Shown: positions 9,950 through 23,695 of the stretch, piece by piece | Position numbering within the stretch: the stretch's first letter is position 1 | How the letters are laid out: every line of letters starts with the position of its first letter | Origin: an uncultured Lachnospiraceae bacterium | Lineage (GTDB): Bacteria; Bacillota; Clostridia; Lachnospirales; Lachnospiraceae | Length of the DNA: 64,000 nt | Direction: 5' to 3' | Assembly: GCA_947626415.1 (NCBI GenBank) | Contig: CANQSA010000011.1 | Location: 11,100 to 75,099, forward strand | The notes under the pieces: model-generated | Databases searched by the model: none | What the model saw: only the letters and a program-made list of their open reading frames with translations | Told to the model about the DNA's origin: nothing | Translations under genes and position numbers: made by a program

Positions 9950-10597
9950 TTATGTTCCATATTTTTCCGCGGCCGCGTCTTCGATCCGGTCGCACCGCAC
10001 GGTAACACGGGCGTTTCCGGCGTAATTACAGGTAAACAGGCTCAGATCATATTCCGAATCAACCATATCGCCTACCGCAGTCGGCTCTAAGGTTTCCACC
10101 GTCCTAACCTGATAAGTAACCGCATTTCTCATTACGTCCACAAAGATCACTTTATCGCCCGTCTGCAGATCCTCGATATTCCGAAAATGCGTTCTGTAAT
10201 TATGCCCGCAGATCACCAGATCGTCCCGATATATTGAGCCGGAATAGCGGCACGGAGAAATCTTCATCTGATCGTAATCCCAGTCCTGCGAGACAGGCAG
10301 CTCCAGTCCGATCGCCGGTATGACGAGGGAACCGATATAGGCCTTGCCGTCTATGAGGATTGTCGGCATCGGGGCATCGGGAGAAATCGTTTCCTCCTCT
10401 GTAACGCCTGTCGGACGTTCTGAGGATTCCGTATATTTATCACGTTCAGCGTCTAATTGCTGTAAAACTGACAGCGCCGACTCCGCCGCAAGGGAATCCT
10501 CGTACAGATTGTAAGCCGTCAGTCCGAACGCCGCACCCATTAAAATGGCTCCTGACAGCATCAGCGCGATTCGTCTACTCTTTTTCATTATCTTCAC
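9950..10597 (-). CDS. Sortase-family transpeptidase (second sortase of the pilus locus, class undetermined)
   Basis: N-terminal TM anchor, His in LVICGHNY, Cys in LSLFTCNY, downstream Arg (ARVTVRC). Confidence 0.8.
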   Translation of the reverse strand: MKIMKKSRRIALMLSGAILMGAAFGLTAYNLYEDSLAAESALSVLQQLDAERDKYTESSERPTGVTEEETISPDAPMPTILIDGKAYIGSLVIPAIGLELPVSQDWDYDQMKISPCRYSGSIYRDDLVICGHNYRTHFRNIEDLQTGDKVIFVDVMRNAVTYQVRTVETLEPTAVGDMVDSEYDLSLFTCNYAGNARVTVRCDRIEDAAAEKYGT

Positions 10598-11561
10598 TCA
10601 ATCGGCCGGCAATGAATCCCGTAAAGAACAGGAATGCGCCTACCACGAAAAGTATCAGCACAGGATACCATAACTGCCCTGTCTGCGGAAGCTTCGGCGG
10701 ATTTGTACCGCCGGACGCCGGCGGGTTTTGAGCCGCAGTGGTTTCCGTTGTGGAAGGCGTATCGGTCGTATCCGGTTTCGTTGTTTCGGTTGAGCCGGAA
10801 GGTTTTACCGCCTTATTCTCAATCGTAAATGTGGTTTCTTCCAATATAATGGAAACCGTATAATTCACGGGGATATCTTTTTCGATCACATTCCAGTCAT
10901 AATCGGAAGATAAATCCTCCCATCTGTGAGACCAGTCATTTTCAGCAGATAACGTTACTTCATCAAATATCTCGTCATTTCGGAGTAACTGCACCGTAAC
11001 CGACTTCGGACGTTCTGTCCCTTCCTGATCCACCCATACTTTTCTGACCGTATAGGCAGTGCTGGCCGGACCTGTCGTTACCGTATATTTTGCAGTCGCT
11101 TCGATCAGATCCTCCGAACCTCCCACAACACGGATCAGCGCAGGCTTGGGCGTATAAATCAGATTTCCAATCGTAGCGGAAGACCCTGTCACAAGATAAA
11201 TTCCTGAAGGAAGCTCCGTAAAATCCACATATCCCAGCCCATTGGTAAGACCGGTGGCAACAGGCGTTCCAATCCCGCTTGCCGCATAAGAATCCAGCGT
11301 ATTCGCAAGACGGCTGACATTTTCACTATCGTCCAGCTCGCCGACCTCAATGGGGAGCGCCGCGAAATCTCCGAGCAGGCCGCCGTCATTCGCCATGACA
11401 TGGTACAGCTTAAATGCCGCATCCGTCACCGCTCCGGATTCCGTGATAAATTTCATTCGCAGCGTGCGCGTCTGCGTATCGGCATACGAAACAATCCCGC
11501 CGCACAGCAGAGCAACGACCATTATAATAATTGTCAGACATTTTCTGGATTTATGCATCAT
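10575..11561 (-). CDS. LPXTG-anchored minor/basal pilin (Cna-B-like domains)
   Basis: Signal peptide, then a C-terminal LPQTG motif plus hydrophobic helix and charged tail. VTVQLLRNDE and WSHRWEDL resemble Cna-B domains. Confidence 0.75.
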   Translation of the reverse strand: MMHKSRKCLTIIIMVVALLCGGIVSYADTQTRTLRMKFITESGAVTDAAFKLYHVMANDGGLLGDFAALPIEVGELDDSENVSRLANTLDSYAASGIGTPVATGLTNGLGYVDFTELPSGIYLVTGSSATIGNLIYTPKPALIRVVGGSEDLIEATAKYTVTTGPASTAYTVRKVWVDQEGTERPKSVTVQLLRNDEIFDEVTLSAENDWSHRWEDLSSDYDWNVIEKDIPVNYTVSIILEETTFTIENKAVKPSGSTETTKPDTTDTPSTTETTAAQNPPASGGTNPPKLPQTGQLWYPVLILFVVGAFLFFTGFIAGRLSEDNEKE

Positions 11562-12387
11562 TTTTCACCTTCTTTTTTCGTGTACGGCGTGAAACAATCA
11601 ACACAGTGATAAGTACTGCCGGAATTTCACAGATAATAACAATCCACCCTGCCGAAATATATTTTGCACCGGATTGTATCATAAGCTCTTCTGCTGTTTC
11701 CTCCTTGCCCAGAAGTTCGCCATGGATCAGCAGCCGATGCGAATTAATCCCGTAAGGAGTACAGGTCACGAGTGTGCAGTAATTTTTCCCGCTCTCAATA
11801 CGCAAGTTCTGCACATCAGTCGGTTCAACAGTTTCAATTCCCCTGACGCGATAAACATAGGATTCGCTTAGGATAGAGATGGTAAACGTATCTCCCTCCT
11901 CCATTCTGTCAAGGTTTGTGAACAGCAGCGCAGATGGCAGCCCTCTGTGACCGGAAAGGACCGCATGCACATTTTCTCCCGCAATGGGGAAGGACGAGCC
12001 TTCAATATGGCCTGCGCCTTCCTGCAAAACCGCCTCACTTATGCCGTGATAGATCGGCAGCATAATATCTCCTTTCGGAATGCTGATATAACCGATAATC
12101 CCGTCTCGCGCAATATCGAGAATGGAATTATATTCTGTCAGCAGCTCATCCGGCAGATTCATCAGCATATACTGACTGGCAGCCAGCTTTTTGTTAAATG
12201 CCTCCGCCTGTTCCAGATAGGCGGAATAATCCGCGTCGGGAATCTTCTCTACCGAGGAAATATAATTAAAGATCGCTCTGCGCTGACGCTGCGCATTGAT
12301 GTAATCGCTGACGGACGGGTACAGCAGCAGGGACAGACCCATAACCAGCATTATAAACGCAACAAGTGATACAATTCGCTGTTTCAT
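11551..12387 (-). CDS. Class C (pilin-polymerising) sortase
   Basis: TLVTCTPYGINSHRLLIHG catalytic motif, HRG motif, N- and C-terminal TM segments. The start is placed at MKQRIVSL (SD AAGGAGAG) rather than the track start at 12429. Confidence 0.85.
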   Translation of the reverse strand: MKQRIVSLVAFIMLVMGLSLLLYPSVSDYINAQRQRRAIFNYISSVEKIPDADYSAYLEQAEAFNKKLAASQYMLMNLPDELLTEYNSILDIARDGIIGYISIPKGDIMLPIYHGISEAVLQEGAGHIEGSSFPIAGENVHAVLSGHRGLPSALLFTNLDRMEEGDTFTISILSESYVYRVRGIETVEPTDVQNLRIESGKNYCTLVTCTPYGINSHRLLIHGELLGKEETAEELMIQSGAKYISAGWIVIICEIPAVLITVLIVSRRTRKKKVKNDA

Positions 12388-12444
12388 ATGAGGCTCTCCT
12401 TGCTGCTGCAATGAGGGTTTCCCCCTCATCGCAGCAAAATAGGT

Positions 12445-14703
12445 TTATTTCGCGGTTTTTCTTCTCGACAGGAAGAACAGCGCTGCGGAGAGCGCGATTC
12501 CACCGCCGCCGAGAATGTAAAATAAATATCTGCCGATACCACCCGTGGACGGGAGATCGGTATACAGGAAGTTGGCTACGATCATTTCGGCGCTGCCATC
12601 GTTGTCAGGATTATCAGTTTTCGAATCAACAAGTTGTACAAATTCTTCATAACTGAATGATTCATTATCCTCTACTGTATTGCTAACTTCAGCACCTGAG
12701 AGCGTACCTGTATATTCGCCAAGCCGATCTGTAGCTGCTTCAAGTTTGATTGTAAACGGGTCAATCTTAGCGTAGTCTCCAGAAGTTGGCATCGCTGTCT
12801 CGACCATCGTATAAGTTACACCTGCATCAAGACCAGAAATATTCAGAGCACCGTTTGAGAGGGAGGCAATGTTATATTCATTTTTGCCTTTATATGTTGC
12901 GATGTCAAGCCATTCAGAATTAAATGTCCCTGTAACTGCATTACCGCCACCATCTACTATTTCTTCCCATGAAATAATAGCGTAGTAGCCATTATCTTTA
13001 AATGACTGTGGTAAATTTTCCATTGTAGTTGGGTTAGGACCTATTGGCCTGAATTGGGCAATTTCCCATTTATCACCAGTTGCCGGACGCACTAATGCGA
13101 ATTTTGCATCTCCTAATGCAGCCGCTGATTTATCTTTGTCATTTTTCAGGAATGAGGCCGCATCAACTTTTACAATGTCAAGGCCAAACACATATACAAC
13201 TGCTGCTTGCGTTGTAGTTTTTGCTGTATCATCATATGCTTGTGGATTGTTGGAATAAGTAAGCACTGCAGAGTTTTTATTTCCATTCATATCAGAAACA
13301 TTTCTAGGGCTTACAACTGCATTTTGATTTACTTTTGCCTTGTAAGTAATATAGATTTGTGAAGATTCATCGTCTTTTACCCCAAGCGTATATGTATCCG
13401 AACCTTCTTTTACCGCTATTTCTTTTAGGCAAGGAAAGTTAATTTCCAAAGTATTTGTACTTTCCTCATAACTTTCAGTATATCCATAAACACTTCCCTT
13501 GTGTGTATGTTCTACCTCTGTGATATCCTGCGGCGTAATTGTGATTTCCTTTGTCGGCAACCAGATGTTTTCTTGATTATATACGCCTTTTGCTTTTACT
13601 GTTACATATACATTAGAAACACCAGCCTCTTTTAATTCCAACGTCAAACCCTTACTCAAAGTATCGGTGAAAATATATTGATAACCAAGAGTGAAATTGT
13701 CATAGTTGCTAGGGAGTGTACCTGTCAGCTTGAATGTTACTACATCCCCGACACCTGCAACTTCTGTATTATATTCACCACCGTCTCTGACAATCTCTTT
13801 GTCAAGTGTAGGGACATCTGCTTTCAGTTCCTGTGTAATATTGTCTGCCACAAAAAGCATACGGGCAGAATACGCTTCATTTACTTTTTCTTCATCTGAA
13901 AGGTCAAGAATCATGTAATAACCAGCAGGGACTGATATTGTACATTGATTACTAATACTGTTCCAAGGGATACTGCCATAATACTGATTCACAAAACTCT
14001 CATTTGCATATGTCGCTGTTCCTGAACTGTCACTTTCAAAACCTCCGAGGATATCAGCGAAATCCTGAAGCCATTCTCTGTTGGCATGAGATGAATCTGC
14101 AATAACATCGGCAACTGCCACAGCAAGTTTGTCAAAGTTTACCTTCGTCAAAGTGCCGCTAACATTACCATATTCATCTACATCTATCTCCTCTCCACCA
14201 TCCGTATAATCAGTATTAAGTATTTTTTTCCCGTCTTTTTCTTTTACAAAATCGTCAAATCCATCGAAATTATCAAAAGCATAGTTGTACTCACCACCAG
14301 CATCATTAGCTTTGGCAAGGGCAAATACAAATTTTATAATATTTTTTTGCCAAGCTTCTTCGCCCGTTGTCCCAAATGCATTACCCCATTTGATATCCGT
14401 GATAGGAATTGGTTCGTTCCTATTCCCGGGATTATCATCATATGTATCCCCTTTGACCGTACCAGAAAAGATCTGATATGCACCATACTTTGCCTCTTCA
14501 TCAACTACAGCATTATCATGCGGGTCAGTCAAGGTAATGGTATACTTATCCAGACCATCATATTGTTTATCTTGATTCAAATTAGTATCGCCACTATGAT
14601 GCTTATACCCACTAGCCGATGTCGCAAACGCCGGTACTGCTGAAGTGACAAGCAGAACAACGGAGACTGCTATGCTGAAAAATTTACGCATAAATTTTTT
14701 CAT
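12445..14703 (-). CDS. LPXTG-anchored major pilin (isopeptide-forming fimbrial subunit)
   Basis: Signal peptide ending AFATSA, E-box-like YTMVETAMPTSGDY, and C-terminal LPSTGG plus TM plus RRKTAK. Confidence 0.8.
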   Translation of the reverse strand: MKKFMRKFFSIAVSVVLLVTSAVPAFATSASGYKHHSGDTNLNQDKQYDGLDKYTITLTDPHDNAVVDEEAKYGAYQIFSGTVKGDTYDDNPGNRNEPIPITDIKWGNAFGTTGEEAWQKNIIKFVFALAKANDAGGEYNYAFDNFDGFDDFVKEKDGKKILNTDYTDGGEEIDVDEYGNVSGTLTKVNFDKLAVAVADVIADSSHANREWLQDFADILGGFESDSSGTATYANESFVNQYYGSIPWNSISNQCTISVPAGYYMILDLSDEEKVNEAYSARMLFVADNITQELKADVPTLDKEIVRDGGEYNTEVAGVGDVVTFKLTGTLPSNYDNFTLGYQYIFTDTLSKGLTLELKEAGVSNVYVTVKAKGVYNQENIWLPTKEITITPQDITEVEHTHKGSVYGYTESYEESTNTLEINFPCLKEIAVKEGSDTYTLGVKDDESSQIYITYKAKVNQNAVVSPRNVSDMNGNKNSAVLTYSNNPQAYDDTAKTTTQAAVVYVFGLDIVKVDAASFLKNDKDKSAAALGDAKFALVRPATGDKWEIAQFRPIGPNPTTMENLPQSFKDNGYYAIISWEEIVDGGGNAVTGTFNSEWLDIATYKGKNEYNIASLSNGALNISGLDAGVTYTMVETAMPTSGDYAKIDPFTIKLEAATDRLGEYTGTLSGAEVSNTVEDNESFSYEEFVQLVDSKTDNPDNDGSAEMIVANFLYTDLPSTGGIGRYLFYILGGGGIALSAALFFLSRRKTAK

Positions 14704-14741
14704 TCAAATCATTCCTTTCTTCTTAACTTTTGTCTCTATGC

Positions 14742-15284
14742 TTAATCTGGTATTTCCGGAGTTGGCAGAATACGCAGCAGCAGCTTTCCCTCAACTTGAT
14801 CGCTATCTATGTAACCAACCACAGTATTCCGTGAATCAATGGACGTTCGCCTGTTGTCGCCCATCACGAAATAGCTGCCTTCCGGTACAGTAACGGGATA
14901 TTCTACCGTGCTGTTGCCAAGACTGACGCCATTCAGGTATGGCTCGGCAAGTTCCGTGCCGTTCACATAGACAACGCCGTTTTCGTCGATACGGATTTCG
15001 TCGCCGCCTGTGCCGATCACGCGCTTGCAAAAAATCCTGCCATTCATTGAAAATACGCAAATATCGCCCCTTTCAAGTGTTGCGGTTTTCCGAGTGATCA
15101 CGATGTCTCCGTCAAACAGAGTCGGACTCATGGAATCCCCGTAAATGCGTACTACAGGAAATACACAGATCACAAGCAGGGTGACGGTTATTGCGGTGAC
15201 CGCCGCACTCACTGCCGCCGCTGCAAGGATCTTAAATAGCCTTTTCTTACGATTACGTTTCTTTTCTTTCCCCATAGGCATCAC
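14742..15284 (-). CDS. Signal peptidase I embedded in the pilus operon (SipA/LepA-like position)
   Basis: GDSMSPTL (catalytic Ser box) and CKRVIGTGGDE (Lys box) are both present, as is GDNRRTSIDSR. The start overlaps the stop of the upstream adhesin gene. Confidence 0.85.
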   Translation of the reverse strand: MMPMGKEKKRNRKKRLFKILAAAAVSAAVTAITVTLLVICVFPVVRIYGDSMSPTLFDGDIVITRKTATLERGDICVFSMNGRIFCKRVIGTGGDEIRIDENGVVYVNGTELAEPYLNGVSLGNSTVEYPVTVPEGSYFVMGDNRRTSIDSRNTVVGYIDSDQVEGKLLLRILPTPEIPD

Positions 15285-18200
15285 CCGTCCGGTCCGTCAC
15301 GGCTCAGGCGCTTTTTGCAGAGTAGCTGTTTTCTATATTTAAGATATTGCATTGCGATAGCCAGAATCCCCGCAATCATCAGCATCAAGCCAAGGAAAAG
15401 ACGCCCGTTAATGCCAAATCCGCCCGTTGTCGGCAGTTCCTTTATGAGTCCATTCACAAACAAACGGTATTGAACCGCATTTTTGCTGGTAATGGTGTCG
15501 CCGATAGGGTCGCCGCTCGTAAGCAGATTTGGTCCATCATCTGAATCATGATCTCTCACGTACAGGAGCATATATTTGTCCGTATTGGTTTCGGTAATTT
15601 GATACTGCGTATCTGCCGGAATATCGCTGAATTCAACCTTTTCACCATCCTTCAGCGTGAAGCTGTAGGTCCATTTATTAGTCTCTTTTTTAGGATCGAT
15701 GCTTTTCGTACCGCCCTTAACTGCCTTTATAATTTGGTCTGTATCATTTTTATAAGTAAACACGACCTCAAACCCAAATTCTGTCGTATCCGCTTCGCTG
15801 CTGCTGACAACCTTCTTGGCTACCGTAAGATTGCCGATGGCAACATTGGTAAAAGGAATCGTAACATTTGAATCCGTTGGTTCAGAAGGTTCCGCAGGAG
15901 CAGAACTGCTCACCCTGTGCGCATAGGTGGCGACAAGCTTATGGGTCGTTTCTGTACCGCCTGGAGTAATCTCCGGCTCCTGAATGGTTATAAACAAGTC
16001 AATGGCCGGTTCACGGCAGTACATATTTTCCAGATCTTCCGTTACCTCGGATATGGTAAATTTGTATTGTGTGCCTTCCGTCAGCGTACCGATATTGTTA
16101 ATTTCTACTTTGCCAAATGATTGTTTAATTATATCGCCAGTTGTAGAAACACTGTTAATTTTTACTGTATAAGAACCGTCCGATTCGTTTAGTTTCCCCG
16201 GCACTGTGATGGTTCCATTATCAATTGCATCCCGTGTTTTTAAATCCGGCTTGATCTTGAACGTAAATTGATCTTCTGCGGTCCATGCTCTCCCGATAAT
16301 CTGCTTAGAAATATCGAGATCAAATGCGGTGCTTTCGTAAGTGTTTGTAAATTGGAAAACCTCATCCTCGATCGTCTTGGAATCAGAACCCTCAATGGTC
16401 GGCTGAAGCGTACCGTCTCCGTTATCTTCAACTTCTACAATCACGTCATATGTGGCAAGTGAATTATTTTTTTCATCTTTTTCAGTAATTGTGAATTCGT
16501 ATGTTCCCGCCTTCGTGAATTTGATTGCATCAAACACTTTTGTGTAGTCATTAGTGATGTCATCGCTTGTAATGCTAAGTTCTTTGCTGTCTCCAGGCGC
16601 AAAGCTGCACCCGCCCACTTCATTCTCGCTATCAGCGGTTAGGGTAAATGTGAACTCATCAGTGGCAAGCCAATTCCTGCCGGCCAATACCTTTTGTATC
16701 TTTGGCACCCATGTATAGCTTGTGTGGTAGGTATTGGTGATCGTGATCGTGTGACTGCCTCCATTTACATCCTCATGCTTATCCCATCTTCTGACAAGGA
16801 GTTTGGCATCTTTCGGCTGTACAGTCTCGTGCGTTTCTGTGACATCTATTAATTTATTGTTTTTATCAACATAAAACCAGGCATACTTTCCACCATCAGA
16901 TGGCGTGCCAGGGACTTTCCATTGATCAAATTCCAGTACCTCTGCCCTTGTCTGACAAGTAGCTACACAATCTTCTTCCTTTAATTTGGTCACATCTGTC
17001 ACTGAATGATCAACATGATAGAGTTTCATGTCGATCTCATCAATAATGCCGTCTTCCTCTTCCTCTTCAAGACTTCCGACACTGACTTTTGCTTCTGCGT
17101 TTCTCAGAACGATCTGGAGATAATACACCGTATCATCATAGTCGATTCCCTTTGTCTCAGCCGGAATCGTCTCGGCAATTTTCAGCCAGTACGTGACAGG
17201 GATCGTCTGGGCGGAATATTGCCCAGGATTGCGGCCAATCTGTTCTTTCGGCGGTGTAGGATAATCTTCAGTGGAATTCCATACATTGTTCGGGTCTGTC
17301 GGATCTTCGCCATTTTTCACATACTGTACCGGAAAAATAATCCCGTTGAATGTAAATGAATCAAACTTCCACTCTGCATGACCTTCACTGCCACCAGTAA
17401 ATGTATGAACCCATTCATTTTTTGCACCCGCTTTACTCAGATCTCCAAACCCTGCGCCATTTATCACAAGATTTCCTTTTTTTATCGCATCCTGCGTTTC
17501 TGTGTCTACACCGGATACCGTAATCGTAAATTCATCTGTAGAAAGCCATTCATTTCCTTTTCTTCCCGTAAAATTCTTGACAATCTTGTAACTCGTATCC
17601 TGCTTTGCCGGGGCAGGCGCATACCGGTTGGTAAACAGCGGACTGCTTCCGGCGTAGATCTGTGTAACGCCATCTGCATCCTCTGTATAAGTAATAGAAG
17701 AAACTTCTGCTACAAGGTGGGAATTATCCTCCATTAAATCTGTTACTGCTGTTCCGGTTGCATCTGGCACACGGGTCACACTGAGGATAACCGTATATTC
17801 ATAGTCAGATTTTATCAAAGTATCATCATCTGTAATGTCATTTTCATAAATGGTAAAGGTATAGACACCTGCCATAGGGAATGTCACACCACAGAAAGAA
17901 GCGTATGTATTCGTTTTCGTACGGTCAAATTCACTGCCGTCTACCAGAAGCTGATCGGACATTTTCCGGTCGGCATAAGTAAATGTATTTGTTTTTCCTT
18001 CTACATGAGTGTCCTTTGCGGAATAGCTGTAATAAGGGTTAGAATTCCCCACTTCGACTATATTCTTTTTATCTGCCGAATTTTCTTTGAATTCGTCTGC
18101 GAACGCAGTAGCTAACACAAGAGGTGTCTCTCCCGCGTTACTAATGATTGCTTGTTCTGCTGCGTCAACTCTGATGCCGACTGCTGTACTCAATTCTGTT

Positions 18201-21200
18201 GAAGTACTGCTGTCGTATGCATTTAATACCTTAAACGAAAACCGGTCATTCTCTTGCCATGCTCTGCCCTCGATTCGTTTGAGAATATAGAAATTGGTAT
18301 CAGCAGGCGCGTTACCGACATCAACCTTTACATAATTATTAGTATCAAATTTGTATATCCCTTCTGCGGCATTAACCTCTTCTGATGAATCTTTAGCGTA
18401 TACAACATAAAACGGATTCAGGATACGGAAACCGGCAGGCGCGAACACTTCACGAATGAAATAACTCTTAGTCGGGTCAAGTCCGGGGAATGCGATACGT
18501 CCGTTAGATCTCGTGGTTGCAGAACCAACCTGGCAGTCTTTTAATGTTTTTGTAGCCGCCTGATCGCCTTTTTCCGCTTCTGTTACCAGGTTTTTCATCT
18601 CGTCTACGGTTTTTCCAGTCAGATCATAAACACGAAATGTAGCGCCCTGCAAAGCATTGCTTTCTACATTTGTGCCCTGATACTTGAAGATTTCAATCGT
18701 GCCGGGTGCTTTTGCATTAGTAATGGTAATGGTTGTCCTGTCCGAGCTGATATTTCTGTCAAGGACAGCTTTATAAAGGGCCGCATTTTCAGCAAGCGCA
18801 CTGCCCCAATTAATATTTTTTAGAACAGACAGGTCAGGAATATTGGAGAAGTTCTTCACCGTGCCGCCCAGTTCGGAAAGCTCTGCCCGGTATGTTGTCC
18901 CGACAAAGCTGCCATATTTTCCGTTTTCATAAGCAAATGTATGCCTATAGATATTATCACCGTCAATATAATACTCCGCCGCGACATAATAATCTTCAAC
19001 CGGACTGCCGTCAAATGTCTTAGAGAGATATTCGTTCTCATATTGCCATGATGTGATCGCCGATATTACATGGTAAGCATATACTTTATCGCCGCCGGTC
19101 GTATTGCAGTGTACCTCGTACGCGACTGCTGTCGGGTGAGTTTCCGTTGTATCCCATGTCTTTTTCAGCACAAGCGACTGTGACATTATCTCATAATTAT
19201 AACCGACATCGACCGCACAGACGGCGTTGGTTGTGTTTGGAACAGACGGATCATGGCCCATAACTGTCGGATCGACTTGACCAACTTGCTTGCCAACTAT
19301 AATGCGCTGCACTTCTGTCCCTTTATATGTTGTTCCATAACTCTTATTCGCATAGTAGCCATACGCTACTGAATCTCTGGTAAGAGACTCAGCCGTTATC
19401 CCTTGACTCGTCAGCGTATAACGTTCATCCGGCTTTATCACCTGATATAAGTATTCCGTTCCCGCTGTGGGATCATATTCCAGTCCCGTGAATTTATACA
19501 TTCCCTCGCCTGTAGTCAGACCTGTGTCAACAAGTTCATATTTATTGGAAGCGCTTGCAAAAGTGTTTGAATCAAGCAAAGTTACCGTACCATCATCCGA
19601 ATTATAAGTAACATATGTTTTTTTTGCATCATATGAAGTACTCGTTGTTTTCTTGTATAAATTCAGCGTAACATCTTTCAGTGGGTAGTCCCCATCCGCA
19701 CTCATGTCGTTATATATACCATCCTTTTTTACATCAAAGAAAACACGACCTGTGAGATTGAACGAATGCTCAGGACGCGGTCCAATTGTTATACCATCTA
19801 TATCGATGGATGCCCGAGCCGGTTTTGCGGGAATAAATGTCCAGAAATTAGCGATCGCATAATCCGTAGTAGAAGGAGTTGTAGTCGACTTGCCCACAGG
19901 ATTATCTAAACTGCTCAGATAGCTGATCATATTTTTCTGATCTTCCGTCGGTTTAGTTATCAGATTGCCGTTTTTGTCAAAATATTCAATAACATTTGTG
20001 GTGTGACTGTGATCGCCTATTCTGATATTCGGATGATCTTTAATGTATTGTGTATTCCGTGCGGCCTGTTCACCGCCGCCAGGGCCCATATTCTTATATT
20101 GGAAATACTGTCCTCCATTTCCATCATCCGTATTAAACTTATTTTTTGCCACATCTACATTTGCTTCTGAATGTCCGGTAGATGCGGCAGGTTCGCCGTA
20201 GTAGATGGCTGTTTCATCATAATAGATAACGTTTTTTGTCAGCTCATAAATGGAACCCTCCGTATCTTGCTGTTCTCCGTTTTTATCATAGATATGACTC
20301 AATCTGGTGAAAGTGATACCACCGGGCGCATTCTCCATATCAATGATAGGAAAATGGATCTCGCCGGCTTTCGTAGTAACAGTAAAGGTAAAATCATTTA
20401 TTGTATACTTGTTACTCGGTATAACAGTTCCATTGCCATCTTTACCGTTCCAGTAAAAATAATTAGTTGAATGTGGCGTAACCGCTCCCGATATTTCCAC
20501 CGGGGCATATTTTTGATTGCCTTCTCCTTCAAATTCAAGGCGCAAGGTCGCTGTCGTCGCTTCTTCTACATCGAAGGAAAAATATCCGCCCTCCCCCTCA
20601 TAAGCACCGGGAATATTATTTCCCTCGGTGTCTTTGATCGTACTTACAAAGCGCAGATTGGTTGCGGGATCCGGCTGGACCGCTTTCTCATATAATTCTC
20701 CCTCCAGCTGATCATTCGGATATTCCAGAAAAATATAATAGCTTTTCAACATTTCTGTATCCTTTGTACCGGGATATTTATACGCTGCGCCCATTTCATC
20801 AAAGGTGTTTTGATTGTTGATATCCTTCACCGAGGTGTAGATGATCTCACCTGTTGCGGAATCATAAATACCTTTATTATTCGTAAAGAAATTATAGGTA
20901 TATGGTTTCACATTGTTAAATTTCATTTTATAAATATAGCTGTCCGTTGTTAAAATATAGTAGGTGTCTACTACACCGGTAGCGGCAGGATGCATTTGTA
21001 AAGATAGAAAATCCGCATATGTGCGGCCATGTTGTTCCGTTCCGCTTTCGTCAAATACCGTTAAATTTAATGCGGCAATTTCTCCACCATAATTTATCTT
21101 TGGATTATGAAAAGGTTCCGATCTTTTTCTGTAATTTGCTTCATCGTTTACCGTATTGCTTTTATTATAAGAATGAAACTCAAAAGTATATACGCCTGTT

Positions 21201-21832
21201 TCAGTAACCGTGTAGGTATAGGGAATGTATTTATAAGTAGCGCTTCCATCCGTATATTCTCCAAAAAATTTTCCATCTTCTTTATGTAATGCGCTCACGG
21301 CGGCATATTCTGTCTGCCAATTGCCGATATATCCTGTTGTATTTAACTCATCCTCATCCCCTGCTTGAGAATTTCGGATATCAATTGTGTGTGTATTTCC
21401 ATTCAGATCGGTCATTACAATATCAACTGAGTCTTTATCGCCAGTATGCTTATTTGCAGTATGACTTAAATCCAGCGTAGAGTTGTACACGCTGGAACCT
21501 ACACAAATTGTATCTCCCTCAAAGGCATATACATGAAAAATTGTCCTATATTCTACTCCGCCGAAACTACTATTACGACATGCATAGTATGGACGTGCAG
21601 CTTCCAGATAATCCGTATCCGGTTTACCGTCCCCATTAGAATCCCACATATACTCCAGCGTCTCATTTTTATATTCATCCGGATCGTCCGCCGCAGCACT
21701 GACATTTTCCTTTTTCGTAAGATGAAACAGCTCCGGCAGCTCCGTTCCTGCCACTACCGATAAAACCATGATCAGGCACAAAAGCATCGAAAATGTTTTT
21801 TTAAGAAATGAATATGAGCCGTATTTTTTCAT
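15281..21832 (-). CDS. Giant LPXTG-anchored pilus tip adhesin (about 2183 aa)
   Basis: Signal peptide from MKKYGSYSFLKK (SD GGAGAG 7 nt upstream; the track start at 21871 lies inside a hairpin). It has an E-box YFIREVFAPAGF and repeated FxFxL-type modules (FSFKVLNAY, FTITVSGVD, FTFTLTADS, FTFKIKPD, FGFEVVFTY) like streptococcal pilin isopeptide-linker repeats. The C-terminus is LPTTGG plus a TM helix. Confidence 0.85.
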   Translation of the reverse strand: MKKYGSYSFLKKTFSMLLCLIMVLSVVAGTELPELFHLTKKENVSAAADDPDEYKNETLEYMWDSNGDGKPDTDYLEAARPYYACRNSSFGGVEYRTIFHVYAFEGDTICVGSSVYNSTLDLSHTANKHTGDKDSVDIVMTDLNGNTHTIDIRNSQAGDEDELNTTGYIGNWQTEYAAVSALHKEDGKFFGEYTDGSATYKYIPYTYTVTETGVYTFEFHSYNKSNTVNDEANYRKRSEPFHNPKINYGGEIAALNLTVFDESGTEQHGRTYADFLSLQMHPAATGVVDTYYILTTDSYIYKMKFNNVKPYTYNFFTNNKGIYDSATGEIIYTSVKDINNQNTFDEMGAAYKYPGTKDTEMLKSYYIFLEYPNDQLEGELYEKAVQPDPATNLRFVSTIKDTEGNNIPGAYEGEGGYFSFDVEEATTATLRLEFEGEGNQKYAPVEISGAVTPHSTNYFYWNGKDGNGTVIPSNKYTINDFTFTVTTKAGEIHFPIIDMENAPGGITFTRLSHIYDKNGEQQDTEGSIYELTKNVIYYDETAIYYGEPAASTGHSEANVDVAKNKFNTDDGNGGQYFQYKNMGPGGGEQAARNTQYIKDHPNIRIGDHSHTTNVIEYFDKNGNLITKPTEDQKNMISYLSSLDNPVGKSTTTPSTTDYAIANFWTFIPAKPARASIDIDGITIGPRPEHSFNLTGRVFFDVKKDGIYNDMSADGDYPLKDVTLNLYKKTTSTSYDAKKTYVTYNSDDGTVTLLDSNTFASASNKYELVDTGLTTGEGMYKFTGLEYDPTAGTEYLYQVIKPDERYTLTSQGITAESLTRDSVAYGYYANKSYGTTYKGTEVQRIIVGKQVGQVDPTVMGHDPSVPNTTNAVCAVDVGYNYEIMSQSLVLKKTWDTTETHPTAVAYEVHCNTTGGDKVYAYHVISAITSWQYENEYLSKTFDGSPVEDYYVAAEYYIDGDNIYRHTFAYENGKYGSFVGTTYRAELSELGGTVKNFSNIPDLSVLKNINWGSALAENAALYKAVLDRNISSDRTTITITNAKAPGTIEIFKYQGTNVESNALQGATFRVYDLTGKTVDEMKNLVTEAEKGDQAATKTLKDCQVGSATTRSNGRIAFPGLDPTKSYFIREVFAPAGFRILNPFYVVYAKDSSEEVNAAEGIYKFDTNNYVKVDVGNAPADTNFYILKRIEGRAWQENDRFSFKVLNAYDSSTSTELSTAVGIRVDAAEQAIISNAGETPLVLATAFADEFKENSADKKNIVEVGNSNPYYSYSAKDTHVEGKTNTFTYADRKMSDQLLVDGSEFDRTKTNTYASFCGVTFPMAGVYTFTIYENDITDDDTLIKSDYEYTVILSVTRVPDATGTAVTDLMEDNSHLVAEVSSITYTEDADGVTQIYAGSSPLFTNRYAPAPAKQDTSYKIVKNFTGRKGNEWLSTDEFTITVSGVDTETQDAIKKGNLVINGAGFGDLSKAGAKNEWVHTFTGGSEGHAEWKFDSFTFNGIIFPVQYVKNGEDPTDPNNVWNSTEDYPTPPKEQIGRNPGQYSAQTIPVTYWLKIAETIPAETKGIDYDDTVYYLQIVLRNAEAKVSVGSLEEEEEDGIIDEIDMKLYHVDHSVTDVTKLKEEDCVATCQTRAEVLEFDQWKVPGTPSDGGKYAWFYVDKNNKLIDVTETHETVQPKDAKLLVRRWDKHEDVNGGSHTITITNTYHTSYTWVPKIQKVLAGRNWLATDEFTFTLTADSENEVGGCSFAPGDSKELSITSDDITNDYTKVFDAIKFTKAGTYEFTITEKDEKNNSLATYDVIVEVEDNGDGTLQPTIEGSDSKTIEDEVFQFTNTYESTAFDLDISKQIIGRAWTAEDQFTFKIKPDLKTRDAIDNGTITVPGKLNESDGSYTVKINSVSTTGDIIKQSFGKVEINNIGTLTEGTQYKFTISEVTEDLENMYCREPAIDLFITIQEPEITPGGTETTHKLVATYAHRVSSSAPAEPSEPTDSNVTIPFTNVAIGNLTVAKKVVSSSEADTTEFGFEVVFTYKNDTDQIIKAVKGGTKSIDPKKETNKWTYSFTLKDGEKVEFSDIPADTQYQITETNTDKYMLLYVRDHDSDDGPNLLTSGDPIGDTITSKNAVQYRLFVNGLIKELPTTGGFGINGRLFLGLMLMIAGILAIAMQYLKYRKQLLCKKRLSRDGPDG

Positions 21833-21861
21833 AATAGTCTCTCCAATCTGATCCAGACAAC

Positions 21862-21911
21862 GCAAAAGCACCTGACCGCGGCATCAATATGCCGCAGCCA
21901 GGTGCTTTTGC
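21862..21911 (-). promoter_or_regulatory. 50-nt extended hairpin in the pilus operon leader
   Basis: 13-bp outer stem GCAAAAGCACCTG/CAGGTGCTTTTGC plus 7-bp inner stem GCGGCAT/ATGCCGC. There is no U-run on either strand. It ends 30 nt upstream of the adhesin ATG. Confidence 0.6.
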
Positions 21912-21932
21912 TCTATAATTGCTCTATAATTG
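21911..21932. repeat. Tandem direct repeat, 2 x 11 bp (CTCTATAATTG)
   Basis: Two exact adjacent copies read directly from the sequence. Confidence 0.9.
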
Positions 21933-21950
21933 ACAGGGTATACTATCCCC

Positions 21951-22030
21951 TGTTCTGTTCTGTTCTGTTCTGTTCTGTTCTGTTCTGTTCTGTTCTGTTC
22001 TGTTCTGTTCTGTTCTGTTCTGTTCTGTTC
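21951..22030. repeat. Pentanucleotide microsatellite (TGTTC)16, which reads (GAACA)16 on the pilus-coding strand
   Basis: 16 exact uninterrupted units (80 bp), counted directly. Confidence 0.97.
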
Positions 22031-22032
22031 AA

Positions 22033-22061
22033 ATCGTAGTCCCAAGTCATAACCCTGTCAA
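22033..22061 (-). promoter_or_regulatory. Candidate promoter P2 abutting the microsatellite
   Basis: On the minus strand: TTGACA (inside the right inverted repeat), 17 nt, TACGAT. The predicted start falls in the first GAACA units. Confidence 0.35.
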
Positions 22062-22098
22062 CCCCTTTTTAAAAATTTTCATATACCAAATCCGTTTT

Positions 22099-22127
22099 AT
22101 TATACAAACTGTTTATCACTTTGTCAA
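22099..22127 (-). promoter_or_regulatory. Consensus sigma-A promoter P1 for the pilus operon
   Basis: On the minus strand: TTGACA (22127-22122), exactly 17 nt, TATAAT (22104-22099). This gives a leader of about 260 nt to the adhesin ATG. Confidence 0.6.
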
Positions 22128-22216
22128 GATAATCATAACTGGTTCGAATTTTTCTTATGAATTTGCGAGTTAGAACGACCCCACGGACTCTGCGGAAAAC
22201 GCAATATAAATCGAAG

Positions 22217-22245
22217 TTGCATTTTTACGCTTTTTTGGTTATTAT
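22217..22245 (+). promoter_or_regulatory. Candidate promoter of the DUF3990/NADAR gene set
   Basis: TTGCAT, 17 nt, TATTAT. Confidence 0.45.
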
Positions 22246-22309
22246 TTATTTGGGAGGAGGATGCGTTATGCCAGCAGTAAATATATATATATGACGCGTG
22301 AAGGTAAAG

Positions 22310-22800
22310 ATGGAAAAAATAATATTATATCATGGAACTCCCGATAAAAACGTTCTGCCTACTTTCGGTTTAGGAGATGATAAACATGATTACGGAAGAG
22401 GCTTTTATCTGACTGAAGATCCGGAACTTGCAAAAGAATGGGCAGTTTGCCGGCCTAATAATGAAAACGGTTGGCTCCATAAATTGATGTTGTTAAGGGC
22501 TGGCGGGCCAATGCTTCCTACTTCTACATAGTCAAAGAGTTTGTCAGAGATAATGTAGATGTTGATATTCTTGAAGAACTTTTACAATTAGGCGGATTGG
22601 GAATGCAGTATTGTATCAAATCTCAATTTGCATACACAAGGCTTCACGAAGCAGAAACTGAACCGACGATAGTAAGCTACGACGAATTTAACGCAAAGTA
22701 TAATTCACGGGATGTTGCGGCAAGACAGAAAATGCGGGATCTGGTGAATTCCGATGCTAACAAAGTAACTAATGTCTTCAGTACACTTTTTGAAAGGTAA
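22310..22800 (+). pseudogene. DUF3990-family gene, frameshifted and probably internally deleted
   Basis: The N-terminal part MEKIILYHGTPD...DYGRGFYLTEDPELAKEWA stops at 22531. The continuation (VVKGWRANASYFYIVKEF...LGGLGMQYCIKSQFAY) is in the -1 frame, open from 22483 to 22800. Confidence 0.6.
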
Positions 22801-22805
22801 AAACA

Positions 22806-23222
22806 ATGCCGGCATATTCAGATGTTTATTTGGATGATGTGGTAGAAAATCAGGGAAAACTCTTTGATTTTGTAGCACAGTCATTTCCTAATACGGATAC
22901 AATAGAATTCATTAAGGCGTATATGACTAGTAAAACACGAAAGAGCATTGATGAAGCAAAAGCTTATGTGATTACGATGACCGCGGAAGAACTGTGGAAT
23001 TACTTTTCAAAAACGGAAGGGTATAAACTTAAAACAGGACATGCACTCCAGGGATTTATGCCCGATTGGATCGGTGAATTCTATGCTTATTATCAATGGT
23101 ATTACAATATACCAAGCCCGGAAGTGATTAAAAAAGTGCCCATTGACTTTTTGATGAAAGCTTATTATGGGCTCCATGATCTGGAACTGGATCTGGCAGT
23201 AAAGAAAGTTGGTGAAGTGTAA
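22806..23222 (+). CDS. Hypothetical protein (138 aa) between the DUF3990 remnant and NADAR
   Basis: Intact ORF whose stop overlaps the NADAR start (TAATG); no recognised family. Confidence 0.55.
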   Translation: MPAYSDVYLDDVVENQGKLFDFVAQSFPNTDTIEFIKAYMTSKTRKSIDEAKAYVITMTAEELWNYFSKTEGYKLKTGHALQGFMPDWIGEFYAYYQWYYNIPSPEVIKKVPIDFLMKAYYGLHDLELDLAVKKVGEV

Positions 23223-23695
23223 TGCAGATTTTATGTTTTCACAACCCTGGTGAAGAAAACGGTTTTTTAAGTAACTGGTACCTTTCTCGCTTTATAGTAG
23301 ATGATATTTCCTTTTCTTCCATGGAGCAGTTTATGATGTATAAAAAAGCTGTCTGTTTCCGAGATGCTAATATAGCCGCTCAGATTTTAGAATCCGAGGA
23401 TGTTTCTCAAATAAAATCGCTTGGACGTCTTGTTGCCGGTTATGATGACAATCTTTGGAATGGCATCAGACAGATTGTGGTATATCAAGGACTTTTTGAG
23501 AAGTTTTCACAGAATAAAGACCTAAAGGAAAAACTGTTGGAAACAGGTAATTCCATTTTAGCGGAATGCGCGGTTAACGATAGAATCTGGGGTATCGGCT
23601 TATCTATGAAAGATCCAGACAGACTTGAAAAAACAAAATGGAAAGGACAAAATCTGCTCGGTTATACTTTAATGATGGTTCGAGATCGTTTGTAA
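23222..23695 (+). CDS. NADAR (YbiA/DUF1768) family protein
   Basis: FLSNWY, MEQFMMYKKA, W-x-VV-x-GL-x-KFSQN, ECAVNDRIWGIG and NLLGYTLMMVR align with E. coli YbiA motifs as I recall them. Confidence 0.85.
   Translation: MQILCFHNPGEENGFLSNWYLSRFIVDDISFSSMEQFMMYKKAVCFRDANIAAQILESEDVSQIKSLGRLVAGYDDNLWNGIRQIVVYQGLFEKFSQNKDLKEKLLETGNSILAECAVNDRIWGIGLSMKDPDRLEKTKWKGQNLLGYTLMMVRDRL

What the first reader, a model, noticed from the sequence alone, without database searches (positions are those of the whole stretch)
21930..22127. Exact (GAACA)16 microsatellite, bracketed by 10-bp inverted repeats, in the leader/promoter of the pilus operon
Between a textbook promoter (TTGACA-17-TATAAT, 22127-22099, minus strand) and the tip-adhesin ATG (21832) lies an uninterrupted 80-bp pentanucleotide repeat (21951-22030). 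It is flanked by perfect inverted repeats TTGACAGGGT/ACCCTGTCAA (21930-21939 and 22052-22061).

The right inverted repeat also provides a -35 for a second possible promoter (TTGACA-17-TACGAT) that would start transcription inside the repeat.

Long perfect non-triplet microsatellites upstream of surface-structure genes are the classic substrate for slipped-strand phase variation. Separately, inverted-repeat-bracketed segments of about 110 bp are the signature of invertible promoters (invertons) in gut bacteria. Either mechanism would make pilus expression stochastic.

A third, more speculative reading is that the RNA (GAACA)16, with a trinucleotide-plus-2-nt-spacer periodicity, is a docking array for an oligomeric RNA-binding regulator. 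The combination of microsatellite and flanking inverted repeats is not something I know as a described switch in Clostridia.
Basis: partly seen in the sequence, partly recalled or inferred. Interest (0 to 1): 0.75.

Follow-up and report, generated by a model that had tools for sequence, protein, structure and literature searches.

The report
Repeat-driven on/off switch for pili
The 80-base (GAACA)16 repeat lies inside a tiny leader gene just ahead of a transcription stop signal, so gaining or losing one repeat unit should randomly switch a Gram-positive pilus operon between low and high expression; this mechanism has been proven in Streptococcus gallolyticus and appears here in a gut or rumen-type bacterium, and the same layout turns up in many other bacteria.

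Summary
**Observation:** confirmed. There is an exact (GAACA)16 at 21951-22030 on the minus strand, a 10-bp inverted repeat, and two consensus-like promoters.

- A leader ORF: Shine-Dalgarno GGGG, ATG at 22050, 35 codons. It contains the whole repeat.
- A 23-bp hairpin at 21911-21862 (about -45 kcal/mol) with a U-rich tail, placed between the repeat and the adhesin's ribosome-binding site.

**Frame logic:** the unit number modulo 3 sets where the leader ribosome stops.
- n=16: stop 31 nt before the hairpin.
- n=17: stop 12 nt before the hairpin.
- n=15 or 18: UGA inside the hairpin.

This is the leader-peptide SSR plus attenuator switch shown experimentally for S. gallolyticus pil1/pil3 (GCAGA repeats; Danne 2014).

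**Family:** I found the same layout in 16 further loci from Lachnospiraceae, Oscillospiraceae, Ruminococcus, Pseudolactococcus, Treponema and unassigned metagenome contigs. Most sit upstream of secreted proteins. One near-identical pair carries 10 versus 20 units.

**Rejected readings:** the inverton and RNA-docking interpretations are not supported.

**Unexplained:** a conserved second promoter (P2) fires into the array, downstream of the leader ATG.

**Verdict:** a new member of a known kind. The state prediction and the switching are inferred, not measured.

The parts
22099..22127 (-). P1 promoter: -35 TTGACA (22127-22122), 17-nt spacer, -10 TATAAT (22104-22099). The predicted start near 22092 lies upstream of the leader ORF's ribosome-binding site.
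   Evidence: 12/12 match. A strong upstream promoter with its -10 ending 5-63 nt before the P2 -35 (37-63 nt in eight of them) occurs in 10 of 16 family loci. The transcription start is not mapped.
22062..22067 (-). Shine-Dalgarno-like AAGGGG of the leader ORF, 11 nt before its ATG.
   Evidence: Sequence. A Shine-Dalgarno motif plus a start codon with an open frame into the array is found in 15 of 17 family loci, against 17% in shuffles and at random positions.
21943..22050 (-). Leader ORF (uORF): ATG at 22050-22048, 35 codons (MTWDYDL(NRTEQ)n...RG), stop TAG at 21945-21943 when n=16. It contains the whole repeat.
   Evidence: translation; frame bookkeeping. TTGACA-N(2-5)-ATG recurs in about a dozen related loci (sequences).
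21951..22030 (-). (GAACA)16 microsatellite. It is open in all three frames and encodes the repeating peptide E-Q-N-R-T. The slippage unit of 5 nt shifts the leader frame.
22033..22061 (-). P2 promoter-like element: -35 TTGACA (22061-22056), 17 nt, -10 TACGAT (22038-22033). The predicted start falls in the first repeat unit, downstream of the leader ATG. Its role is unexplained.
   Evidence: An exact TTGACA lies 29-38 nt before the array in 21 of 108 arrays (about 0.26 expected). 25 of 27 of these have a -10-like hexamer at 16-18 nt, against 25% background.
22052..22061 (-). 5' arm of the 10-bp inverted repeat (UUGACAGGGU). It lies in the spacer between the leader's Shine-Dalgarno motif and its AUG.
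   Evidence: As RNA it pairs with the 3' arm and closes the array into a loop (-19.4 kcal/mol, z -2.8).
21930..21939 (-). 3' arm of the inverted repeat (ACCCUGUCAA), 11 nt after the array. It also forms a local hairpin, ACAGGG/CCCUGU, with the end of the array.
21924..21926 (-). TAG stop used by the leader frame when n = 17, 14 or 20. It ends 12 nt before the hairpin.
21884..21886 (-). UGA stop used by the leader frame when n = 15, 18 or 12. It lies at the junction of the loop and the 3' arm of the terminator hairpin.
21908..21932 (-). 11-nt direct repeat, TTATAGAGCAA x 2.3, between the array and the hairpin. It carries the frame-0 stop. No function is assigned.
21852..21911 (-). Intrinsic-terminator-like attenuator: a 23-bp stem with a 4-nt loop (21911-21862). 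The stem base is AAAAG/CUUUU and it is followed by GUUGUCUGG. After the GC-rich core the U-rich tract reads UUUUGCGUUGU.
   Evidence: On the minus strand it folds at -45.5 kcal/mol (z -9.5) with all 23 pairs formed, including 2 G-U pairs. On the + strand the value is -36 kcal/mol with two mismatches. Hairpin plus U-tract occurs at the same place in 10 other family loci.
21839..21844 (-). Shine-Dalgarno GGAGAG of the adhesin gene.
   Evidence: Sequence.
15281..21832 (-). First gene of the pilus operon: 2183-aa LPXTG protein with FctA/DUF7601 isopeptide-type domains (adhesin or tip pilin candidate).
14742..15281 (-). S26 signal-peptidase-like gene (179 aa).
12445..14703 (-). Backbone pilin (752 aa, GramPos_pilinBB domain, LPXTG anchor).
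11551..12387 (-). Sortase (278 aa as called in public assemblies).
9950..11561 (-). Cna_B protein (10575-11561) and a second sortase (9950-10540) at the end of the locus.

Best explanation
**What it is.** The repeat belongs to a phase-variable transcription attenuator of the Streptococcus gallolyticus pil1 type.

**How it works (proposed).**
1. Transcripts from P1 carry a short leader ORF (Shine-Dalgarno AAGGGG, ATG at 22050). Its body is the (GAACA)n array, which has no stop codon in any frame.
2. A strong hairpin with a U-rich tail (21911-21852) sits 40 nt after the array and 30 nt before the adhesin's ATG. When left alone it ends most transcripts.
3. The unit is 5 nt, so each gain or loss of a unit by replication slippage moves the leader ribosome into another frame:
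   - One frame stops 8 nt after the array, 31 nt before the hairpin (n=16, as assembled; predicted low state).
   - One frame stops 12 nt before the hairpin (n=17; predicted intermediate or high).
   - One frame reads 21 more codons to a UGA at the hairpin loop (n=15 or 18). The ribosome then melts the 5' arm, the terminator cannot form, and RNA polymerase runs on into the pilus operon (predicted high).
4. A clonal population would therefore hold weakly and strongly piliated cells.

**Shown here:** every sequence part, its geometry, its recurrence in related loci, and length polymorphism in a sister locus.

**Inferred:** use of P1 and of the ATG, termination at the hairpin, ribosome-dependent read-through, and the switching rate.
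For: **In the window**
- The array, the leader ORF and the stop codons are in place.
- The hairpin folds at -45.5 kcal/mol (z -9.5). It folds better as minus-strand RNA.
- The stop positions relative to the hairpin are +8, +27 and +67, against a hairpin spanning +40 to +89.

**The experimentally proven precedent (PMC3894217)**
- The layout is identical: promoter, RBS+ATG leader peptide made of pentanucleotide repeats, stem-loop terminator, then pilA-pilB-srtC.
- Leader stops at least 28 nt before the terminator gave low expression.
- Stops just before or inside the terminator gave high expression.
- Mutating the ATG and RBS, adding three stop codons, or deleting the terminator behaved as that model predicts.

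**Recurrence of the module**
- The layout is found in 17 loci, counting the window.
- It comprises an upstream promoter, Shine-Dalgarno plus start, the array, an early stop, a terminator, and then a gene with a signal peptide.

**Statistics**
- Shine-Dalgarno plus start with an open frame into the array: 15/17 observed against 0.17 expected, binomial P about 4e-10.
- One early-stop frame together with one read-in frame: 10 of 12 non-redundant loci against about 0.34 expected.

**Length polymorphism**
- L140 has 10 units and L141 has 20, with 99.6% and 98.4% identical flanks. They fall in different predicted frames.
- L135 has 10 units versus 15 in L143. L058 has 7 versus 20 in L142.
- At the window's own locus, 7 contig ends from other samples fall at or inside the array. 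The one contig that spans it has 5 units.
Against: - **No experimental data for this locus.** There is no read-level or expression data for this organism.
- **Geometry alone is not significant.** For the window by itself, about 35% of shuffled spacers give the same stop pattern.
- **Imperfect U-tract.** The tract after the hairpin is interrupted (UUUUGCGUUGU).
- **Long Shine-Dalgarno spacing.** The spacing to the ATG is 11 nt.
- **Alternative start.** A TTG at 22033 would put n=16 in the read-in frame, so the assigned state depends on the start codon chosen.
- **P2.** The conserved P2 would produce transcripts that lack the leader start codon. The model does not explain this.
- **The 5-unit allele may be an artefact.** It could be an assembler loop collapse at k=21 (my inference).
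- **Non-independent loci.** Some family loci are homologous to each other.
Confidence: 0.7

Rival explanations
1. **The SSR acts without translation.** The array is simply a variable-length 5' untranslated region (or the 5' end of P2 transcripts). Its length tunes mRNA stability, folding or the distance to downstream sites. This would resemble repeats in 5' UTRs of some Gram-negative adhesin genes, such as Moraxella uspA2 (my own knowledge, not checked here).
For: - P2 is conserved and is tied in position to the array, not to the leader ATG.
- L139 has P2, the array and a terminator, but no detectable P1 and no same-strand gene downstream.
- As RNA, the inverted repeat closes the array into a loop.
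Against: - It does not explain the conserved Shine-Dalgarno plus ATG in front of the array (15/17 loci).
- It does not explain the stop codon 1-11 nt after the array in 11 of 12 non-redundant loci.
- It does not explain why one frame regularly reads into the terminator.
- In the S. gallolyticus precedent, translation of the leader was required.
Confidence: 0.12
2. **Inverton.** A site-specific recombinase flips the 112-bp segment between the 10-bp inverted repeats. This would remove the leader ATG and the P2 -10 from the sense strand.
For: - A perfect 10-bp inverted repeat brackets the array.
- One low-coverage contig (L010) ends inside the left arm.
Against: - All 5 left junctions (L001, L009, L011, L012, L149) and all 3 right junctions (L001, L002, L004) have the window's orientation.
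- No recombinase is among the called neighbours.
- 10 bp is short for a recombination site.
- Related loci show either no such repeat or complementarity of a different sequence, which fits an RNA role better than a DNA one.
Confidence: 0.04
3. **Protein docking array.** The (GAACA)n RNA binds an oligomeric RNA-binding protein (TRAP-like or another type) that controls the downstream terminator.
For: - The array has a 5-nt periodicity and lies upstream of a terminator.
- The same unit recurs in many phyla.
Against: - There is no alternative antiterminator structure overlapping the array.
- The array does not overlap the terminator.
- The triplets are not the (G/U)AG that TRAP binds (my own knowledge).
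- The unit number varies twofold between near-identical loci.
- A working precedent needs no such protein.
- No candidate protein was identified.
Confidence: 0.04
4. **Neutral microsatellite.** The array has no regulatory role, and the surrounding features are coincidental.
For: For the window alone, the stop-codon geometry is not statistically unusual.
Against: - The whole layout recurs in 16 other loci from several families and two phyla.
- Shine-Dalgarno plus start is strongly enriched in front of the array.
- The hairpin has z -9.5.
Confidence: 0.05

Closest known systems
Streptococcus gallolyticus pil1 and pil3 leader-peptide / GCAGA-repeat attenuator (Danne, Dubrac, Trieu-Cuot, Dramsi 2014, PLoS Pathog, PMC3894217)
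   Same: - The order of parts is the same: promoter, RBS+ATG leader ORF made almost wholly of a pentanucleotide repeat with no stops in any frame, stem-loop terminator, adhesin, major pilin, sortase C.
- The frame set by the unit number decides whether the leader stop lies well before the terminator (at least 28 nt there, 31 nt here) or within it.
- The target is a sortase-assembled pilus.
- One related locus (L139) even carries (GAACA)10 followed by (GAGCA)3, which is the GCAGA unit in another phase.
   Different: - The unit is GAACA, not GCAGA.
- The host is unidentified; the closest leader sequences come from Oscillospiraceae, Ruminococcus and Lachnospiraceae, not a streptococcus.
- The hairpin is much stronger (-45 versus -18.7 kcal/mol) and its U-tract is weaker.
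- The distance to the gene is much shorter: the hairpin ends 30 nt before the ATG, versus about 130 nt.
- A second, conserved promoter-like element (P2) lies inside the leader's initiation region, and an inverted repeat brackets the array. In S. gallolyticus only the upstream promoter was active.
- Nothing has been tested experimentally here.
Leader-peptide attenuation of amino-acid operons (E. coli trp; described)
   Same: The position of a ribosome translating a short leader ORF decides whether an intrinsic terminator forms.
   Different: - There, the ribosome's position depends on charged-tRNA supply and on an alternative antiterminator hairpin.
- Here it depends on a heritable frame change, and no alternative hairpin is evident.
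Clostridioides difficile cwpV switch (own knowledge, not checked here)
   Same: A heritable DNA change between the promoter and a surface-protein gene determines whether a terminator in the leader stops transcription.
   Different: - That change is a recombinase-driven inversion between long inverted repeats.
- Here no inversion was seen, and the variable element is a microsatellite.
Classical SSR contingency loci, with repeats in the 5' coding region or between -35 and -10 (outlined)
   Same: Slipped-strand mispairing of a short unit drives stochastic, reversible switching of surface structures.
   Different: - The repeat is neither inside the regulated gene nor inside a promoter spacer.
- It acts through a separate leader ORF and a terminator.

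Membership tests
Leader-peptide SSR attenuator (S. gallolyticus pil1 type) | Promoter upstream of the leader ORF, so that the ORF's ribosome-binding site and start codon are transcribed. | tested here: met
   P1 matches the consensus 12/12, and its -10 ends 37 nt before the P2 -35 and 33 nt before the Shine-Dalgarno core GGGG. This is a sequence match only; the transcription start is not mapped.
Leader-peptide SSR attenuator (S. gallolyticus pil1 type) | Short ORF with RBS and start codon whose body is a non-triplet repeat that is open in all frames. | tested here: met
   AAGGGG, 11 nt, then ATG at 22050. The ORF is 35 codons at n=16, and GAACA has no stop in any frame. 15 of 17 family loci show the same arrangement.
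Leader-peptide SSR attenuator (S. gallolyticus pil1 type) | Intrinsic terminator between the leader ORF and the first pilus gene. | tested here: met
   A 23-bp hairpin at 21911-21862, -45.5 kcal/mol, z -9.5, with the U-rich tail UUUUGCGUUGU. The simple terminator scan missed it because the U run lies inside the stem base. Termination itself was not measured.
Leader-peptide SSR attenuator (S. gallolyticus pil1 type) | At least one frame stops well before the terminator and at least one stops within or just before it. | tested here: met
   The stops end at +8 (31 nt before the hairpin), +27 (12 nt before) and +67 (at the loop/3' arm junction). Taken alone, this pattern arises in about 35% of shuffles.
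Leader-peptide SSR attenuator (S. gallolyticus pil1 type) | Unit number varies among cells or strains. | tested here: inconclusive
   At the window's own locus there are 16 units, against 5 in the only other spanning contig, which may be an assembler collapse. Seven contig ends fall at the array. In a sister locus, 10 versus 20 units occur with about 99% identical flanks. No read-level data are available.
Leader-peptide SSR attenuator (S. gallolyticus pil1 type) | The regulated genes form a sortase-pilus operon. | tested here: met
   An LPXTG protein with FctA domains, an S26 peptidase, a backbone pilin and sortases.
Leader-peptide SSR attenuator (S. gallolyticus pil1 type) | Read-through depends on translation of the leader. 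| not testable with these tools
   This needs ATG/RBS and three-stop mutants, as.
Invertible promoter (inverton) | Both orientations of the segment between the inverted repeats occur in sequence data. | tested here: not met
   Eight junction observations from independent contigs all show one orientation. The sampling is small and from low-coverage assemblies.
Invertible promoter (inverton) | A site-specific recombinase, usually encoded nearby. | tested here: not met
   None is among the called genes for about 12 kb downstream and about 10 kb upstream. A recombinase acting in trans is not excluded.
Promoter-spacer SSR switch | The repeat lies between the -35 and -10 elements (or otherwise changes their spacing). 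| tested here: not met
   The array starts 2 nt after the P2 -10 and 68 nt after the P1 -10.
TRAP-like RNA-binding attenuation | Triplet repeats overlap an antiterminator that competes with the terminator; a cognate oligomeric protein exists. | tested here: not met
   The folds show no alternative pairing between the array and the terminator. No candidate protein was sought beyond the neighbouring genes.

The most novel reading that the evidence does not exclude
The (GAACA)n leader-ORF switch may be a widespread, possibly mobile, phase-variation cassette. It occurs across Bacillota and Spirochaetota, and, placed inside genes, in several other phyla.

Its conserved internal promoter P2 is always placed so that transcription starts at the first repeat unit, downstream of the leader start codon. 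P2 may therefore be a functional second layer that has not been described. Possible roles are:
- dedicated transcription through the array that raises slippage;
- a sigma-dependent pause that couples the ribosome to the polymerase;
- a separate (GAACA)n RNA.

In the window, the inverted repeat would be the RNA helix that closes the leader's initiation region once the array has been transcribed.
Probability: 0.25. Interest if true: 0.7.

Novelty: new member of a known kind. Interest (0 to 1): 0.5.

Why it matters
In the searchable literature, the leader-peptide SSR attenuator is documented for one species only, S. gallolyticus.

- **Wider use of the design.** Finding the same design with another repeat unit, in front of a pilus operon in a different Gram-positive lineage and in front of many secreted proteins of rumen and gut Clostridia and Treponema, suggests that commensals commonly use it to diversify their surface.
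- **Annotation.** Such arrays break short-read assemblies: seven contig ends fall at this one. They also sit in 'intergenic' DNA, so they are easily missed.
- **Ready predictions.** The window gives which unit numbers should be low or high.
- **An open puzzle.** The conserved promoter P2 remains unexplained.

Tried and rejected
- **Rfam.** A scan of 21000-23000 at permissive threshold gave only two chance microRNA matches.
- **Homologues of the adhesin N-terminus.** They are very rare: 10 hits. The two I fetched, at 59% and 41% identity, have quite different leaders with no array. The switch is therefore not inherited along with the adhesin.
- **Exact-protein look-ups for more spanning contigs.** These returned mostly contigs broken at the array. 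The long NCBI contigs in the index could not be displayed, apart from a related strain that lacks the island.
- **Metagenome pattern scan.** It found five family members but not the window's own species.
- **Stop-codon geometry as a statistic.** It is not significant for a single locus, only across the family.
- **Long-range complementarity across the array.** It is significant in only 5 of 15 loci, so I do not treat the inverted repeat as a defining part.
- **The hairpin as a terminator for a + strand gene.** Rejected: no + strand gene ends there, and the stem is better on the minus strand.
- **A regulator-dependent third promoter at the 11-nt direct repeats.** Considered from the sequence only and dropped for lack of any support.
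- **Literature searches for GAACA or TGTTC repeats.** They found nothing.
Full report
**1. The observation**

- The microsatellite is real and exact. Tandem Repeats Finder gives 21950-22030, period 5, 16.2 copies, 100% identity. On the minus strand, the coding strand of the neighbouring operon, it reads (GAACA)16 at 22030-21951.
- The 10-bp inverted repeat lies at 21930-21939 and 22052-22061 and is perfect.
- Two promoter-like sites are on the minus strand: TTGACA-17-TATAAT at 22127-22099 (12/12 match; P1) and TTGACA-17-TACGAT at 22061-22033 (10/12; P2).
- The genes downstream form a sortase-pilus operon:
  - a 2183-aa LPXTG protein with FctA and DUF7601 domains;
  - an S26 signal peptidase;
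  - a 752-aa backbone pilin;
  - a sortase, then a Cna_B protein and a second sortase.

**2.

- *A hairpin.* Between the repeat and the adhesin's ribosome-binding site lies a 23-bp hairpin with a 4-nt loop (21911-21862).
  - As minus-strand RNA all 23 pairs form, two of them G-U. The energy is -45.5 kcal/mol, against -19.3 +/- 2.8 for shuffles (z -9.5).
  - The + strand version has two mismatches and -36 kcal/mol.
  - The stem base is AAAAG/CUUUU and is followed by GUUGUCUGG. After the GC-rich core the RNA therefore reads UUUUGCGUUGU, the shape of an intrinsic terminator with an imperfect U-tract.
  - It ends 30 nt before the adhesin ATG, so it sits inside the operon's leader.
- *A leader ORF.* Twenty nucleotides before the repeat there is an ATG (22050-22048), preceded at 11 nt by AAGGGG.
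  - The ORF runs through the whole array, which has no stop codon in any frame.
  - With 16 units it ends at TAG 21945-21943, giving MTWDYDL(NRTEQ)n...RG, 35 codons.

**3. Geometry**

Measured from the last base of the array, the hairpin spans +40 to +89. The three frames stop as follows.

| Unit number n | Leader stop | Position relative to the hairpin |
|---|---|---|
| 16 | ends at +8 | 31 nt before the hairpin |
| 17 | ends at +27 | 12 nt before the hairpin |
| 15 or 18 | UGA at +65 to +67 (21886-21884) | junction of the loop and the 3' arm |

- In the third frame the ribosome must unwind the entire 5' arm.
- Each slippage of one 5-nt unit moves the leader into a different frame.
- This bookkeeping assumes the ATG at 22050. 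A TTG at 22033 with a weak GGGA upstream would shift the assignments.

**4. This is a known mechanism**

A literature search led to Danne et al. 2014 (PMC3894217). That paper shows the following.

- In S. gallolyticus, the pil1 operon (pilA adhesin, pilB pilin, srtC) is preceded by a promoter, an RBS+ATG leader peptide gene made of 22 GCAGA repeats, and a stem-loop terminator.
- Out-of-frame gain or loss of repeats lengthens the leader peptide so that its stop lies within or after the terminator. The ribosome then prevents terminator formation and transcription rises about 11-fold.
- Leader stops at least 28 nt before the terminator gave the low, heterogeneous state. Stops immediately before or inside it gave the high state.
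- ATG/RBS mutants, three-stop mutants and terminator deletions behaved as that model predicts.
- pil3 has the same arrangement.

Part for part the window matches this, with a different unit (GAACA) and a different host. By those rules, n=16 is the low state and n=15 or 18 the high state.

**5. Related sequences**

*The module does not travel with the adhesin.* Homologues of the adhesin N-terminus are rare, and their leaders lack the array.

*The genome scan.*
- In some hits the array lies inside real ORFs just after a start codon. These are ordinary translational contingency loci, for example in Brachyspira, restriction-modification-like genes and a GNAT gene.

*A subset repeats the window's whole layout*.
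- The subset comprises Lachnospiraceae L135, L136, L078, L113 and L041; Oscillospiraceae or Ruminococcus L042, L091 and L058; Pseudolactococcus L126; and Treponema L038 and L060.
- The layout is: upstream promoter, Shine-Dalgarno plus start 3-28 nt before the array, array, stop codon within 4-11 nt in at least one frame, hairpin plus U-tract, then RBS plus ATG of a gene.
- L042 is cut off 36 nt after its array, so only its upstream half could be checked.
- Most downstream genes that could be read begin with a signal-peptide-like N-terminus. They include a CBM_2 protein, a DUF5648 protein, fn3 lipoproteins and a 1514-aa protein.
- In L139 the next same-strand ORF lies 542 nt downstream and has a zinc-finger domain, not a signal peptide.

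*Five more members.* A metagenome scan for GGGGTTGACA-N(18-36)-(GAACA)4 added L139-L143.

*Statistics.*
- Shine-Dalgarno plus start with an open frame into the array occurs in 15/17 loci, against 17% for shuffled or random positions (P about 4e-10).
- One early-stop frame together with one frame open for at least 50 nt occurs in 10/12 non-redundant loci, against about 0.34 expected. For the window alone this pattern is not unusual.
- The loci are partly homologous, so these P values are optimistic.

**6. Is the array variable?**

- *Sister loci.*
  - L140 and L141 come from sibling metagenomes. Their flanks are 99.6% and 98.4% identical, but they carry 10 and 20 units, which places them in different leader frames: stop at +172 versus +11.
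  - L135 and L143 carry 10 and 15 units.
  - L058 and L142 carry 7 and 20.
- *The window's own locus.* All other public contigs come from one sample series.
  - Seven contig ends fall inside or at the array (L002/L008, L004, L009, L011, L012, L149, and L010 just before it).
  - The single spanning contig (NODE_530) has 5 units.
  - Five units is what a de Bruijn assembler would give by passing once round a k=21 loop, so I do not count it as firm evidence (my inference).

**7. The inverted repeat**

- No inverted junction was seen in 5 left and 3 right junctions.
- No recombinase is among the neighbours.
- As RNA, the two arms close the array into a loop. They cover the stretch from the last Gs of the Shine-Dalgarno motif to the AU of the leader AUG (-19.4 kcal/mol, z -2.8).
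- Complementarity between the 45 nt before and the 40 nt after the array is at or below 5% of shuffles in 5 of 15 loci: the window, L135, L143, L038 and L060. Their sequences differ.
- I read this as a possible RNA-level accessory that closes the leader's initiation region once the array has been transcribed. I do not read it as a recombination site. This is weakly supported.

**8. The unexplained part: P2**

- An exact TTGACA lies 29-38 nt before the first GAACA in 21 of 108 arrays, where about 0.26 is expected. It is also present in all five metagenome hits and in the window.
- 25 of 27 of these have a -10-like hexamer at 16-18 nt, against 25% for other TTGACA sites in the same loci.
- The predicted start falls in the first repeat unit, downstream of the leader's start codon.
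- The hexamer's position follows the array, not the ATG.
  - In one subfamily, which includes the window, the ATG lies 2-5 nt after TTGACA.
  - In another, the Shine-Dalgarno motif and the ATG lie inside the P2 spacer and -10.
- P2 is also present where the array is inside a real gene.
- P1-type promoters further upstream are found in 10 of 16 loci.
- P2 transcripts would lack the leader ORF and should end at the attenuator. Their purpose is open. In S. gallolyticus only the upstream promoter was active.

**9. Context**

- A related strain (GCA_947625465.1, about 96.5% nucleotide identity) lacks window 9951-23692.
- The pilus operon, its switch and four small genes (a truncated DUF3990 gene, two ORFs with no Pfam match, and a NADAR gene) therefore form a 13.7-kb accessory island.

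**10. Verdict**

- The element is best explained as a leader-peptide SSR attenuator of the S. gallolyticus pil1 type, making it a new member of a known kind (confidence about 0.7).
- The inverton and RNA-docking readings are not supported.
- The points of interest are the apparent breadth of this design among gut and rumen bacteria and the conserved, unexplained promoter P2.

Noticed in passing
window 9951-23692: The whole pilus locus, its leader switch and four small genes (a truncated DUF3990 gene of 73 aa, 65-aa and 138-aa ORFs, and a NADAR gene) are absent from a related strain (GCA_947625465.1, about 96.5% identity in the flanks). In that strain the 2-Hacid_dh gene abuts the 190-aa/FtsX genes. 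The region is a 13.7-kb accessory island. The relative carries instead an AbiEii insertion on the other side of 2-Hacid_dh.
   Followed up: partly
L019-L138 (genome scan); TTGACA 29-38 nt before each array: A conserved promoter-like element (TTGACA, 16-18 nt, then a -10-like hexamer) is placed so that transcription would start at the first GAACA unit. It occurs in 21 of 108 arrays from many phyla, including arrays inside real genes. It lies downstream of the start codon that reads the array.
   Followed up: partly
L027, L028, L033, L093, L097, L129, L055, L064, L068 (Brachyspira): Several (GAACA)n arrays occur per Brachyspira genome. Many lie directly after an ATGA start, downstream of a terminator-like hairpin. 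They look like a set of translational contingency loci.
   Followed up: no
L023, L088, L124, L062, L047: (GAACA)7-21 arrays lie inside long ORFs with conserved flanks (...FPEYLYE... / ...LTEEQEKNLVICTSG). These are probably phase-variable restriction-modification or methyltransferase-like genes in Alphaproteobacteria and Pelistega.
   Followed up: no
L139 1090-1155 (oriented copy): A composite array: (GAACA)10 followed directly by (GAGCA)3, which is the S. gallolyticus GCAGA unit in another phase. This locus has P2 and a terminator, but no clear P1. The next same-strand ORF lies 542 nt downstream and encodes a zinc-finger-domain protein.
   Followed up: partly
L041, L058, L078, L140, L142, L135: first 25 nt after the array: A conserved motif, GG(C)-UAAnUGn-(G)CC-UUUUU, follows the array. 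It forms a 3-4-bp mini-hairpin with the early stop codon in its loop, then a U run. The U run with the CC is complementary to the AAAAAGGGG at the leader's ribosome-binding site. The window has GGGGAUAGUAUACCC at the same place.
   Followed up: no
L013/L014 3651-5986: The closest homologue of the adhesin N-terminus (59% identity) is split into 89-aa and 661-aa ORFs. This is probably a frameshifted gene. It lies downstream of a tRNA-like sequence and a plain promoter without any repeat.
   Followed up: no
L002 9581-10222 versus window 11551-12387: In sample ERZ27249106 the sortase next to the pilin is called as 213 aa instead of 278 aa, followed by a gap of about 180 nt. This may be a truncating variant of the pilus sortase in that population.
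   Followed up: no
window 21908-21932: An 11-nt direct repeat, TTATAGAGCAA x 2.3, lies between the array and the hairpin. Loss or gain of one copy would also shift the read-in frame. No function is assigned.
   Followed up: no
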